64,000 bases of DNA from Eledone cirrhosa (lineage: Eukaryota). This document shows positions 14,152 through 64,000 of the stretch, piece after piece. The position numbers were made by a program, and so were the translations under genes. Location of the stretch: the NCBI GenBank assembly GCA_964016885.1, contig OZ024742.1, positions 327,732,001 through 327,796,000 on the forward strand. The letters run 5' to 3'. Each line of letters starts with the position of its first letter. The stretch's first letter is position 1. The notes under the pieces are model-generated. The model was not told where the DNA came from, made no database searches, and worked only from the letters and a program-made list of their open reading frames with translations.

Positions 14152-14300
14152 TTGTCAGTTAGATTCAAACTTTTAATGAGTGGCATTATATATATATATT
14201 TATATATATATATATATATATATATATATATATATATATATATATATATATATATATATATAATATTAATAAATGGAAACTATATTTATAAAACCATATT

Positions 14301-14365
14301 TATTTCATTATACATATTTCAGGGATACCACATTAAATTATGGTATGCCTTCATCAGAAAAAATA
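14301..14365 (-). ncRNA. Type I minimal hammerhead ribozyme (slightly degenerate)
   Basis: Minus strand reads tatttttt-CTGATGA-AGGCATACCA-taatttaatg-TGGTATCCCT-GAA-ATATGTAT-A-atgaaata. Confidence 0.7.
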
Positions 14366-15984
14366 CAATATATAACAGTTTTACAAATAGCTTTGACGTA
14401 CTCTTTTAAAATACAACCATTACTTTTGGAGGCTGTCTGGATAGTGATTTGTTTATATTGTTTTAATAATTCATAGTGTTAAGCACAATTAGAAAAAGAG
14501 AGAGAAAAGAACAAAGATGGAGAGAGAAAAAAGAAAAAGAGAAAGAAAACCTGGAGAAATATCGGAGAGAGAAATGTATGGAGAAAAGAAAGAGATAAAT
14601 AAAGATAGGAGGAAATAAAAACTAAAAAAGAAAAAAGAAAGAAAAGGAAGAAATAAGAAAAACAAAGGAAAGCAACAGAGAGATATCAAGTCATCATACA
14701 GAAAGAAAAACTCAAGAGAGAGAAATACTATATAGAGAGGGGGGGGGGGACAATGAAAACTTTACGTCATGTCATATTAAGTTGAGTTAACAATTTATAT
14801 GAAATGAATAATAAAAATATAAGTATCAATATTCATGAATGGGACATAGATATATATGAGAAATTAAACATTGTTCAATAATGACTATGTGTTTATTTTA
14901 GAAACTTGAGATCAATATACCAAAATCTGAGTTCAAAATGTACCCTTGCTATAGAGATCAGTATTTTATGCAAAGACATACAAATATATATGTATATATA
15001 TATATATATATAGATACGCATGTCCTGAAAATAGAAATTATGTTTACTCAAGCCAACAATATAGCCATACAAAACGTAAATGATTTCTCTTAAACACTGC
15101 TATAGATTCCCTGTGTTATAAAAATTTTACAGTATATATATACAAATATATACGATTAACATTCATGTCCTCATATATACGATTACCATTCATGTGTTTA
15201 ATATTATGCATATCTGTAATATACCTCTCAACCACATAGATATATACACATACATATATACACATACATATGTATAAATAAATATTTGCGTGCATCCTCA
15301 CGCATCATTCATGTATATATACAGACATATATAGACACAAAAAAACCTATAACACTTTTTATGCATGTTAATACACACATATGCATTTGTATAGAGATAA
15401 TCACATATCAATATATTACTAAAGGATTATAACCTGTAAATATAACCATAACAATACAAATTTAAAATACCAAAGGAATATATTTTGGAAATGCAACTAT
15501 ATCAGTATAGTCCAAAGAAATCTAGAAATATCAAAGCATTAAATATCTTTAAAACACTATAGAGTATCTTAAGTTAAAATAATATGTTTTATATATTTAG
15601 TATAGAAATTTATCCTACGTATATCTCAATCTAGATATTGAGAGGGTAGACTTATGAAGGTTATGAGAAGCTATCATAATCAAAACAAATAAATAAAAAT
15701 AATTTAAAAGATTAAAAAAAAAAAAAAAAAAAGATTAAAAAAAAACCCAATGATTCTACAGATAACCTTATATTTAGTATAGAAATTTACCTTACGTATA
15801 TTTTATTTAATACATTGGAAGTATAGACATTTTAGAGTAGTTTATTATATCCTTGTTTATATTTAGGAAGAAAGTTTAAAAAGAAAAAGGTGAAGGAATC
15901 TAATGATTTATCGACAGGTTCTATATATTAACTAAAATTACTTAATTAATTATACTACATTTTAAATTTATATTTATATTTAAA

Positions 15985-16195
15985 CGTTGAGTTCAATCTA
16001 TGTCTGCAGCAACTGAATACATTGTTCCTTAGATTAAGGGAATTTTTGGACTTTAATATAAAGAATATTTCTTCAATACAAAGATCACAATTCTCTGAAG
16101 AGGAATTAAAAGGAGTAGCTTATGAAATAATATTCCAATTCATCGAATATTTAATATTATCTCGTTTTAGGTCCCATAGTAGGCTAGATAGCGAA
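15985..16195 (-). pseudogene. PLE GIY-YIG endonuclease C-terminal remnant
   Basis: Translates SLSSLLWDLKRDNIKYSMNWNIIS*ATPFNSSSENCDLCIEEIFFILKSKNSLNLRNNVFSCCRH, matching the LS..W.LK...W.I...A.P...C.LC..E...LN.R...CRH pattern of PLE C-termini. Confidence 0.75.
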
Positions 16196-16429
16196 GATAA
16201 TTTAATGTGGTATCCCTGAAATATGTATAATGAAATAAATATGGTTTTATAAATATAGTTTCCATTTATTAATATCGTATATCTACTCAAAAAACTTGTC
16301 GAGTGTTTTATATCAGTTATAAAAATATTTACTTGTTGTATCCCAACAACTTTCAATAGAACTTTTGCATATATATATATATATATATATATATATATAT
16401 ATATATATATATATATATATATATATATA

Positions 16430-61757: not shown

Positions 61758-61854
61758 ATGTAAGTATGTATGTATGTATGTATGTATGTATGTATGTATG
61801 TATGTATGTATGTATGTAAGTATGTATGTATGTAAGCATGTATGTAAGCATGTT

Positions 61855-62605
61855 TATCCCTTTCTCTTAATTTCGAGTACATTATTTTGACCAGCCACCT
61901 TCCTGGTGGCAAGGTTGTAAAAGAAAAGAAATTGTCATCCCTTGAATCGCAAGAATGTTTTGCAAATTTTGAAGCTGCCAGCTATCGCAGCCATTTATAG
62001 ACTATGAATTAGGGAGCTGCGCTTTTTGTCCGCAAATCCAAGTTCAGTCATACTTTGGTCCAAGCGGGTTTGTATATAACCCGTAGCTCCAATAATGATG
62101 GGTATGAAGCTAAAGGTGTATCTTGGATACTGGATTTGTAAACTCCTCATCAATGGTCCGTAGATGTCCTCCTTCTCCTGTATTTTTCTGACAACGTTTA
62201 CACAAGTGGGCAGCTGATCTCCACAACAGAACACGTTTCCAATGTGAGGTCCCAAACAACAATATCAGGCCGATTGTGCTTTAATTTGGTGGCAGTTTTT
62301 ATTTTCAGGTTCCACCAGTATTTCTTAGTGCCATCTGTCTCAATATATTCTTCCTCGTTTGTTGTTAATTTTGTTTTCCGAAGTGCGTTCCAGATGGTTC
62401 TAGCTATCCCTTCGTGTCTCATGGGGAGGTAGTAGCGAGATGACATTCTTTCGCAGCTGGCAACAATGTGGCTTACATCCTCGATCTTTGTTTTACATAG
62501 CCTACATTTATTGTCAGCTGCTGCCCTCCTCTTTTGTGCAGCAGATATTTGGTAGGGAGTTCTTGTTCCTGTATTGCATAGAGATATCCCTCAAGGTGTG
62601 ATGTC
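61855..62605 (-). mobile_element. 3' fragment of a second R4/Dong-like family in (CATA)n
   Basis: AIQEQELPTKYL, MSSRYYLPMRH, HNRPDIVVWD...VEISCP; different 3' UTR; ATGT arrays on both flanks. Confidence 0.85.
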
Positions 62606-62788
62606 ATAAACTTGTCGGAACTCCATGTATGTATGTATGTATGTATGTATGTATGTATGTATGTATGTATGTATGTATGTATGTATGTATGTATGTATGT
62701 ATGTATGTATGTATGTATGTGAGTATGTATGTATGCTTTTATGTATGTATGCATGTATGTATGTAAGTATGTATGTATGTATGTATGT

Positions 62789-64000
62789 ATGAAGGATCAG
62801 TGGTGGAGTGAGAAGGCTGGTGAGATACAAACTGCGTCTGATTCCAATAACACAAAGCTGTTGTACAATCTCTTGCGTGAGGTTTATGGACCGTCTTCTT
62901 CTCTGGTGACACCGCTTCGCAGCAAGGATGGCAAAGAACTTCTTCGTGACTCACAAGGAATTCTACGAAGGTGGCGAGAGCACTTTGATGATCTTTTGAA
63001 TCAGCCGTCTTTCGTCAGTGAAGATTTCCTCAATCTCATTCCAGAAAGTCCTGTGAAAGTAGCTCTTGCAGAACCTCCGACGCTTGTGGAGGTTGCAGTG
63101 GCTATTTCGAAGCTGAACAGTGGAATATCTCCAGGTATGGATGGCATACACGGTGAGCTCCTACAATATGGTGGTGAGAGACTCCTGCAATATCTTCACT
63201 CTTTGTTTGGCAGGATATGGGCTAATGAATCCGTACCTGAGGACAGGAGAGATGCAGTAATGGTGGTCTTGTACAAGGGAAAGGGTAACAGGAACTATTG
63301 TGGGAACTACAGAGGTATATCATTACTTTCTGTCGTAGGGAAAGTTTTATGTAGCGTGCTTCTGGACTGTCTGCTGACACACATTGCAGATTGTGTTCTT
63401 CCTGAAAGTCAATCTGGTTTTCGTGCTGGACGCGGCACTACTGATATGATCTTCTCAGCTAGACAGCTCCAGGAGAAGTGCATGGAACAAGGCTTGGATC
63501 TGTATCAGGTTTTTGTCGATCTGACAAAAGCTTTCGATACTGTTAACAGAGATGCATTATGGAAGGTTCTCCAGAAGCTTGGTTGCCCTGATAAGTTCCT
63601 TGCTTTAGTTTGGTCTTTCCATGACGACATGAAGGTTTGGGTTAATGTCGAGGGTAAGATGTCGGAGCCTATCTCAGTAAAAAATGGAGTGAAACAGGGG
63701 GATATTCCAGCACCGACCCTGTTTGCCATATACTTTGCAATGGTTTTCTGTATTGCATTCAGGAATTGCGAGCATGGTGTTTACATCCGATATCGAACCT
63801 CAGGCAGCATATTTAACATCAGGCGCTTTGCTGCGAAGACAAAAGTATTTACATCAATCATAAGAGACCTCTTGTATGCAGATGATTGCGATCTTGTAGC
63901 GCACACAGAGAGTGATATGCAGCACATTTTGAATGCATTTTCTGACGTTTGCACTGCCCTACGTCTGACTGTCAGTCTCAAAAAAACCGTCGTCATGTAC
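62789..64000 (+). CDS. RTE-clade LINE reverse transcriptase, 5'-truncated, open to window end
   Basis: One frame from 62789 reads RWREHFDDLLN, PGMDGI, NYRGISLL, PESQSGFR, FVDLTKAFD, GVKQGD..PTLF, LYADD, KKT. It is absent from the ORF track, presumably because no stop lies inside the window. Confidence 0.9.
   Translation, partial: MKDQWWSEKAGEIQTASDSNNTKLLYNLLREVYGPSSSLVTPLRSKDGKELLRDSQGILRRWREHFDDLLNQPSFVSEDFLNLIPESPVKVALAEPPTLVEVAVAISKLNSGISPGMDGIHGELLQYGGERLLQYLHSLFGRIWANESVPEDRRDAVMVVLYKGKGNRNYCGNYRGISLLSVVGKVLCSVLLDCLLTHIADCVLPESQSGFRAGRGTTDMIFSARQLQEKCMEQGLDLYQVFVDLTKAFDTVNRDALWKVLQKLGCPDKFLALVWSFHDDMKVWVNVEGKMSEPISVKNGVKQGDIPAPTLFAIYFAMVFCIAFRNCEHGVYIRYRTSGSIFNIRRFAAKTKVFTSIIRDLLYADDCDLVAHTESDMQHILNAFSDVCTALRLTVSLKKTVVMY

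What the first reader, a model, noticed from the sequence alone, without database searches (positions are those of the whole stretch)
14188..64000. Retroelement classes partition the microsatellites: each class sits in its own repeat
Seen: all 4 PLE insertions are flanked on both sides by (TA)n. All 4 Tx1-like copies start in (TATC)n and lie in the same orientation relative to it. The 3 well-preserved R4/Dong-like copies (2 families) are flanked by (CATA)n on their sense strand. The RTE LINE and two RTE-like short elements begin in (ATGT)n. Known: some Tx1-clade (Kibi, Koshi) and R4-clade (Dong) elements are microsatellite-specific, but for other repeats as far as I recall. Inference: several unrelated endonucleases (GIY-YIG, APE, RLE) have divided the simple repeats as safe-harbour targets, and the insertions may in turn seed or extend those repeats.
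Basis: partly seen in the sequence, partly recalled or inferred. Interest (0 to 1): 0.8.

Follow-up and report, generated by a model that had tools for sequence, protein, structure and literature searches.

The report
Retrotransposons dividing up microsatellite strands
In this animal genome (likely an octopod), families from four unrelated groups of jumping genes sit genome-wide in their own simple repeat and orientation, likely because each family cuts and primes on one strand of that repeat, a known habit here extended to new repeats and to a group not reported to do it.

Summary
Against 30-bp backgrounds of 0.09-0.17%, 5' flanks are: Tx1-A (TATC)n in 24/29 full-length and 10/14 truncated copies; R4-A and R4-B (CATA)n in 24/29, 9/13 and 12/15; RTE-A (ATGT)n in 15/30. 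Controls: DNA transposon 0/20, SINE 11/65 in any repeat. Truncated 5' ends, 12-28 bp duplications carrying repeat interruptions, and insertions into arrays carried by another element show that these repeats are targets, not just tails. The slogan 'one class, one repeat' fails. Tx1-B uses (ATT)n (18/18), a third R4 family uses (AAT)n (6/8), the short RTE uses (TA)n as often as (ATGT)n, and (CATA)n is the other strand of (ATGT)n. The partition is by family and strand: two repeats are each shared antiparallel by two clades. RTE-A also carries GT, TA and ATT arrays in its UTRs that other elements then hit. PLE support is weaker: 3' ends are TA in 27/29, true 5' ends in 4/15. Microsatellite targeting is known (Kibi, Koshi, Dong, Waldo, Naiad). 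These targets and a targeting RTE were not found in 10 paper searches. Safe-harbour selection and endonuclease causation are inferred.

The parts
14267..16368 (.). PLE-A insertion, inverted pseudo-LTR ends with hammerhead-like core; (TA)n at 14187-14266 and 16369-16429
20681..21016 (.). PLE-A-related short inverted pair between (TA)n arrays
23540..23621 (.). small PLE-B terminal fragment between (TA)n arrays
23895..26299 (+). PLE-B: frameshifted RT plus C-terminal GIY-YIG, 5' inversion, (TA)n both sides
   Evidence: (PF00078, PF01541)
33046..33491 (+). 5'-truncated Tx1-like copy (Tx1-E), (TATC)n both sides
36459..37535 (+). 5'-truncated Tx1-like copy (Tx1-C), starts in (TATC)n 36310-36456
37629..38593 (+). 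5'-truncated Tx1-like copy (Tx1-D), starts in the short TATC tail of another Tx1 end; 3' flank (CT)n
39750..40341 (+). short bipartite non-autonomous RTE (RS1 family), (ATGT)n both sides
40432..40877 (+). short RTE derivative (RS2): 92% match to the RTE-A 5' UTR plus the RTE-A 3' end; tail to tail with the R4 copy
40889..43318 (-). 5'-truncated R4-A copy, (CATA)n on its sense strand both sides
44001..45709 (+). PLE-C with inverted 5' part and hammerhead-like core, (TA)n both sides
49081..54818 (+). full-length Tx1-A (ORF1 599 aa; ORF2 APE-RT-zf-RVT in two frames), (TATC)n both sides
57739..61757 (-). near full-length R4-A (about 35 nt short at 5'; frameshifted RT and RLE), (CATA)n both sides
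61847..62624 (-). 5'-truncated R4-B, (CATA)n both sides
62625..62791 (.). (ATGT/ACAT)n array shared head to head by R4-B (minus) and RTE-A (plus)
62792..64000 (+). 5'-truncated RTE-A LINE. It continues past the window; its 3' UTR (ATT)n holds a full-length Tx1-B (L061:3187-9003) and it ends in GGCAGCCATCAT before (ATGT)n

Best explanation
Each retroelement family sits in one microsatellite in one orientation (Tx1-A in TATC, Tx1-B in ATT, R4-A/B in CATA, R4-C in AAT, RTE-A and its short derivatives in ATGT or TA, PLEs mostly in TA), likely because its protein nicks one strand of that repeat and primes reverse transcription there. Shown: family- and strand-specific 5' junctions at many truncation points; duplication of 12-28 bp of pre-existing repeat; insertion into arrays carried by other elements; piling into shared arrays, with two clades antiparallel on ATGT/CATA and on ATT/AAT. 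Inferred: the bottom-strand nick is chosen mainly by the endonuclease or DNA-binding domain and helped by pairing of the RNA 3' end with the nicked repeat (about 0.6 for protein-led choice); each insertion leaves repeat on both sides and so adds targets; the habit persists because such sites are harmless.
For: 5' flanks by one rule: Tx1-A TATC 24/29 full and 10/14 truncated, GATA 0; R4-A CATA 24/29 and 9/13, R4-B 12/15, ATGT 0; Tx1-B ATT 18/18; RTE-A ATGT 7/10 plus 8/20; RS1 ATGT 12/29 and TA 13/29, CATA 0; R4-C AAT 6/8. Background 0.09-0.17%. Controls: DNA transposon 0/20, SINE 11/65 in any repeat. Duplications that carry an interruption: L308, L311, L314 (19-20 bp), L427 (20 bp), L114, L127, L129 (12-28 bp). 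RS1 5' and 3' flank types agree (rho 0.76, Fisher p 0.003). In-genome empty sites: the RTE-A UTR has (ATT)>=4 in 25/29 copies, and Tx1-B lies in it at L061, L343 and, truncated, L082; R4-C lies antisense in a second ATT tract of the UTR at L093. Unselected copies in the background sample follow the same rule. Precedent for endonuclease-determined choice and for tail annealing: PMC7265360, PMC1919474 (passages).
Against: No cleavage data. Tx1-A and Tx1-B differ at only 2 of 11 residues in the stretch that I take to be the beta-hairpin (position from recall of L1/Tx1L), yet hit different repeats. PLE-B true 5' ends are TA in only 4/15 (4-fold, p 0.015). RTE-A second set: 8 of 20 had no repeat by the rule, 3 TA and 1 the opposite strand. 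No empty allele from another haplotype was seen (could not show one). Samples are the best-scoring 30 of 320-5520 candidates per search, so they favour young copies. Most background arrays have no known element beside them (TATC 7/12, ATGT 13/16, ATT 8/12), so elements do not explain most arrays.
Confidence: 0.8

Rival explanations
1. RNA-guided choice: the nuclease is loose, or uses breaks common in repeats, and the microsatellite at the RNA 3' end (element-coded or read through from the donor site) pairs with the same repeat and fixes target and orientation.
For: Each family's terminus begins its own repeat (Tx1-B ...GAAATC-ATT, RTE ...GCCATCAT-GT/AT, R4 ...GAAGAAC-ATAC). RS1 accepts ATGT and TA, both of which continue CAT. 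Near-identical putative hairpins in Tx1-A and Tx1-B. Tail annealing is described for SART1 (PMC7265360, passages).
Against: The 3' flank copies the local 5' flank, including its interruptions, rather than a fixed family tail. Endonuclease swaps change specificity in SART1/TRAS1 (PMC7265360, passages).
Confidence: 0.3
2. The repeats are only tails or are seeded at insertion (RT slippage), and 5' repeats arise because elements land in tails of older copies or expand later.
For: RTEs generate SSRs from their 3' UTR (PMC2887409, Discussion). Many 5' arrays are indeed tails of other elements. PLE 3' ends are TA in 27/29 in three families but true 5' ends in 4/15.
Against: Landing in another copy's tail at 400- to 900-fold enrichment is itself targeting. 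Interrupted duplications and nested insertions into RTE-borne ATT show the repeat was there first.
Confidence: 0.07
3. Random insertion followed by purifying selection or passive accumulation in repeat-rich, gene-poor regions.
For: The window is 5-6-fold richer in TATC and ATGT than the genome sample. Passive accumulation was proposed for Drosophila Waldo-A/B (PMC3812793, passages).
Against: It cannot give family-specific repeats and fixed orientation. A DNA transposon (0/20) and a SINE (11/65) in the same genome are not in repeats. Copies 99-100% identical to each other already show the pattern.
Confidence: 0.02

Closest known systems
Kibi (TC)n, Koshi (TTC)n and crocodilian Tx1 (TTCC/TTTC)n (PMC4494074, PMC3812793; passages)
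   Same: Two-ORF APE-type Tx1-like LINEs inserted in microsatellites, with sister families on different repeats.
   Different: Targets here are (TATC)n and (ATT)n, not found in my searches; mollusc-like host; copies 99% identical with hundreds to thousands of candidates.
Dong / R4 clade on (TAA)n in insects, molluscs and cnidarians (PMC7998251, PMC3812793; passages)
   Same: RT plus C-terminal RLE, no N-terminal zinc finger. R4-C uses the classic (TAA)n.
   Different: R4-A and R4-B (56-59% RT identity to each other, 38% A to C) have moved to (CATA)n.
Waldo (R1 clade) on (ACAY)n (PMC3812793, passages)
   Same: ACAT is a rotation of CATA, so this repeat is a known target.
   Different: There an APE-type R1 element; here an RLE element on one strand and an RTE on the other.
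TRAS1 and SART1 on (TTAGG/CCTAA)n (PMC7265360, passages)
   Same: Two elements use one repeat in opposite directions.
   Different: They are sister R1-clade elements on telomeres; here unrelated nucleases (APE and RLE) share dispersed microsatellites, twice.
Lepidopteran RTEs that generate SSRs (PMC2887409, abstract and Discussion); octopus RTE with a microsatellite 3' UTR (PMC9115989, passages); bipartite non-autonomous RTEs (PMC5786205, passages)
   Same: SSR-bearing 3' UTR, 5'+3' UTR derivatives.
   Different: RTE insertion was described as not sequence-specific; RTE-A and RS1 have oriented ATGT/TA at 5' junctions, and the UTR arrays are used as targets by Tx1-B and R4-C.
Naiad and Neptune PLE bias for (TA)n (PMC8557442, passages)
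   Same: (TA)n at PLE ends, inverted pseudo-LTR structures.
   Different: Nothing new in kind; PLE-B has a C-terminal GIY-YIG and a hammerhead-like core, so it is not a Naiad.

Membership tests
Tx1 clade (Tx1-A, Tx1-B) | two ORFs; ORF2 with N-terminal APE, RT and C-terminal zf-RVT | tested here: met
   nearest solved protein is L1 ORF2p
Tx1 clade (Tx1-A, Tx1-B) | RT groups with Tx1, Kibi and Koshi rather than L1 in a tree | not testable with these tools
   no named reference sequences were available; the label Tx1-like rests on architecture and recall
Tx1 clade (Tx1-A, Tx1-B) | target preference (over 20% of flanks, criterion of PMC4494074) | tested here: met
   24/29, 10/14, 18/18
R4 clade (R4-A, -B, -C) | RT followed by CCHC finger and PD-(D/E) restriction-like endonuclease | tested here: met
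   (RPD...E motif in three fragments of the R4-A and R4-B copies; CCHC matched in R4-B, not matched by the pattern in the R4-A fragment)
R4 clade (R4-A, -B, -C) | no N-terminal zinc fingers (unlike R2) | tested here: met
   pattern search of three N-terminal fragments of one frameshifted R4-A copy
R4 clade (R4-A, -B, -C) | N-terminal Myb/SANT-like domain; RT phylogeny | not tested
   one search returned 984 relatives (best 120 listed), none with a clade name
Dong in the strict sense | (TAA)n target | tested here: not met
   R4-A and R4-B use (CATA)n, so they are not filed as Dong; R4-C meets it (6/8)
RTE clade (RTE-A) | single ORF with APE and RT; SSR-bearing 3' UTR; bipartite derivatives | tested here: met
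   (APE-type N-terminus read by eye); RS2 92% and RS1 67% to the RTE-A 5' UTR
RTE clade (RTE-A) | RT phylogeny | not tested
   no references; the label rests on architecture and recalled UTR motifs
EN+ Penelope-like elements | RT with C-terminal GIY-YIG | tested here: met
   PLE-B; for PLE-A and PLE-C only partial coding pieces were seen
EN+ Penelope-like elements | pseudo-LTRs in tandem or inverted form, with hammerhead motif | tested here: met
   core CTGA[T/A]GA...GAAA in all three (motif only, not folded; the Rfam rows shown were low-complexity noise)

The most novel reading that the evidence does not exclude
A self-building target ecosystem. A microsatellite-homing RTE (a clade reported as non-specific) disperses GT, TA and ATT arrays in its UTRs and extends ATGT arrays. 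Tx1, R4 and PLE families have specialised on individual strands of these arrays, with repeated target switches inside Tx1 (TATC and ATT) and R4 (TAA to CATA). The loop drives part of the extreme microsatellite load of octopod genomes.
Probability: 0.35. Interest if true: 0.78.

Novelty: new variant of a known kind. Interest (0 to 1): 0.58.

Why it matters
It gives a natural panel of young, high-copy retroelements with APE, RLE and GIY-YIG nucleases, each with a defined target. Tx1-A and Tx1-B are 72% identical over the RT-containing part of ORF2 but use different repeats, so they make the old question of what sets LINE target choice (nuclease or RNA tail) directly testable by swaps. It adds an RTE to the target-choosing clades. 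It also offers a mechanism linking retroelements to the high microsatellite content of cephalopod-like genomes, which affects marker design and insertion calling.

Tried and rejected
Empty alleles from public runs: three contig sets of one sample and three RAD-seq runs were found. Laying four of them on a young Tx1-B locus was uninformative, because the tool skips the repeats at both junctions and lists only the best-supported joints. A search for paralogous empty sites among the fetched loci (96 insertions) gave mostly self or tail matches. Its one apparent repeat-free site (L123) proved to be a neighbouring element, not an empty site. The Rfam rows shown were low-complexity miRNA matches below gathering score (150 of 189 listed). 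The protein search did not name the R4 clade. No simple 5'-truncated Tx1-B was in the 20 fetched; only L082 (92% to Tx1-B) serves, so a short element-coded ATT head is not excluded. No family on the (GATA)n strand was seen; the element following TATC in L068, L069 and L329 is another same-sense Tx1 head. Earlier scan notes: none in this genome, none for the full word set. Rows dropped before counts (same-family sequence upstream, i.e. internal deletion or inversion): R4-A 5, RTE-A 4, PLE-B 14. Copies whose 5' end lay outside the locus were not counted, nor were 2 rearranged Tx1-B copies.
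Full report
Setting. The window is G000:C3:327732001-327796000 in a 3.0-Gb genome. An octopod host is my inference, from the repeat make-up, an Argonauta hians relative of the R4-A RT at 56%, and the report of an octopus RTE whose 3' UTR is mostly microsatellite (PMC9115989, passages).

Observation. Tandem-repeat, ORF, self-BLAST and Pfam calls locate the elements. Background from 40 evenly spaced 10-kb stretches (114,000 windows, both strands): TA 6.7%, TATC 0.09%, ATGT 0.16%, CATA 0.17%, ATT 0.11%.

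Genome-wide test. Each search listed about 40 best matches and gave 30 loci; the query copy was dropped except in the Tx1-B 3' count. Tx1-A (1319 and 452 candidates): 5' flank TATC in 24/29 full-length copies (3 TA, 2 none) and 10/14 truncated; 3' flank TATC 15/29; GATA never. R4-A: CATA in 24/29 full-length and 9/13 truncated (5 dropped as internal rearrangements). R4-B: 12/15 truncated. ATGT never for either. RTE-A: ATGT in 7/10 truncated (4 dropped). In 20 longer fetches it was ATGT 8, TA 3, CATA 1, none 8. RS1 (5520 candidates): ATGT 12, TA 13, none 6 of 29 (two copies score both). All counts are unless noted; folds of 260-920 are. PLE-A, -B and -C 3' ends are TA in 27/29 each, but non-inverted PLE-B 5' ends only in 4/15 (14 dropped as inversions or continuing element; 4-fold, p 0.015). 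Controls: one end of a DNA-transposon-like element 0/20; an abundant SINE in the background sample 11/65 in any repeat. Limits: top hits favour young copies, a few pairs are not independent (L027 and L028 share flanks), and candidate numbers are not copy numbers.

Target or tail. (a) The repeat lies at 5' truncation points scattered along the elements. (b) Duplications that carry an interruption of the repeat occur on both sides: 19-20 bp in Tx1-A L308, L311, L314; 20 bp in R4-B L427; 12, 25 and 28 bp in RS1 L114, L127, L129. The script flagged 27 of 111 insertions as non-pure, and I count only these seven as diagnostic; R4-A gave none in 18. RS1 flank type agrees between the two sides (rho 0.76; Fisher p 0.003). 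(c) Empty sites within the genome: the RTE-A 3' UTR is a cassette of GT, TA, ATT/GTT, GT, TA and T-rich tracts before its true end, with (ATT)>=4 in 25/29, (GT)>=5 in 29/29 and (TA)>=5 in 28/29 copies. Full-length Tx1-B lies in that ATT tract at L061 and L343, a truncated relative at L082, a SINE at L105, and R4-C lies antisense in a second ATT tract at L093. The 5' UTR also carries TA, TG, CA, CAA and ATT tracts. An empty allele from another haplotype could not be seen.

The unit is family and strand. Tx1-B, intact (ORF1 642 aa, ORF2 1150 aa) and 72% identical to Tx1-A over the RT-containing part of ORF2, has ATT at 30/30 3' ends and 18/18 full-length 5' ends (20 fetched, 2 rearranged). R4-C, found unselected in the background sample, has AAT at 6/8 assessable 5' ends, the classic Dong target. 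So ATGT/CATA is split between RTE (APE) and R4-A/B (RLE), and ATT/AAT between Tx1-B (APE) and R4-C (RLE). Tail-to-tail pairs across one array were scored by a short motif: R4-B with an RTE end 9/29, R4-A 3/29, Tx1-B with R4-C 2/30. (TA)n is a shared sink. Extension of arrays by duplication is shown and dispersal of arrays inside RTE-A is shown, but most background arrays have no library element beside them (TATC 7/12, ATGT 13/16, ATT 8/12; small library), so elements account for a part only.

Mechanism. Best: target-primed reverse transcription at a strand-specific nick in the cognate repeat, a second nick about 12-28 bp away, and repeat left on both sides as a new target. Targeting itself I put above 0.9; protein-led choice about 0.6 against RNA-tail-led about 0.3. 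The stretch that I take, from recall, to be the APE beta-hairpin differs at 2 of 11 residues between Tx1-A and Tx1-B, which keeps the rival open. That (TA)n is its own reverse complement could explain why PLE insertions so often have 3' ends on both sides (priming from both strands); this is inference only. Safe-harbour selection was not tested.

Known. Seen as passages: PMC3812793 (Waldo ACAY, Mino AC, Kibi TC, Koshi TTC, Dong TAA), PMC4494074 (crocodilian Tx1 on TTCC/TTTC), PMC8557442 (Naiad and Neptune TA bias), PMC7998251 (Dong TAA in insects, molluscs, cnidarians), PMC7265360 (TRAS1 and SART1 opposite on one repeat, nuclease swap, annealing), PMC1919474 (hairpin), PMC5786205 (bipartite RTEs), PMC3124438 (shrimp, nothing on these targets). 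[quoted passage not shown] PMC13282606 (first third plus term search) lists active RTE, Dong-R4, L1-Tx1 and Penelope in Octopus vulgaris and has no occurrence of 'target'. Ten searches found no report of Tx1 on TATC or ATT, R4 on CATA, or a targeting RTE. The library lacks most subscription papers (the Kojima and Fujiwara 2004 screen was not read) and Repbase entries, and no supplements were read, so single targets may be on record there.

Verdict. A real and strong pattern, a new variant of a known kind: new targets, a targeting RTE, strand sharing by unrelated nucleases and element-borne targets. Interest 0.58.

Noticed in passing
L061:3187-9003 (1.2 kb beyond the window end): Intact full-length Tx1-B, 99-100% identical to many other copies, inside the 3' UTR of the window's RTE; likely still active.
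   Followed up: yes
L219:1048-3250 and L226: Third R4-like family (R4-C) in (AAT)n, in tandem runs and tail to tail with ATT-type Tx1. A fourth, more diverged R4-like RT at L219:6425-7111 was not examined.
   Followed up: partly
L355:1400-2420, L363:1344-2420: The RTE-A 5' UTR is over 1 kb and contains a captured SINE-like segment plus CAA, CA, TA, TG and ATT tracts; the ORF ends in three or four C2H2-like fingers.
   Followed up: partly
window 26341-27130; L215; L240: A unit of about 420-490 bp with internal (TA)n occurs twice in the window and as a tandem array filling the 10-kb stretch L240; satellite or Helitron-like, unexplained.
   Followed up: no
window 18473-18690, 29115-29310, 1924-2138, 13259-13420: Very abundant SINE (65 hits in 400 kb) with an ATT tail and ordinary duplications; its tail hosts Tx1-B in 5 of 20 fetched copies.
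   Followed up: partly
window 33777-35680: DNA-transposon-like element (933 candidates), no Pfam match for its two ORF pieces; used as control.
   Followed up: partly
window 5683-7079: Helitron-like fragments with a PIF1 helicase match.
   Followed up: no
window 43500-43620 and 8944-9239: Perfect inverted repeats built around (TA)n tracts; may be short PLE-type inversions.
   Followed up: no
window 17200-18460: Element-like stretch with a 183-aa frame and no Pfam match, between (TA)n and a SINE; not identified.
   Followed up: no
L372-L400: PLE-C occurs mostly as short 190-430 bp hammerhead-bearing units in inverted pairs, resembling retrozyme-type non-autonomous copies.
   Followed up: partly
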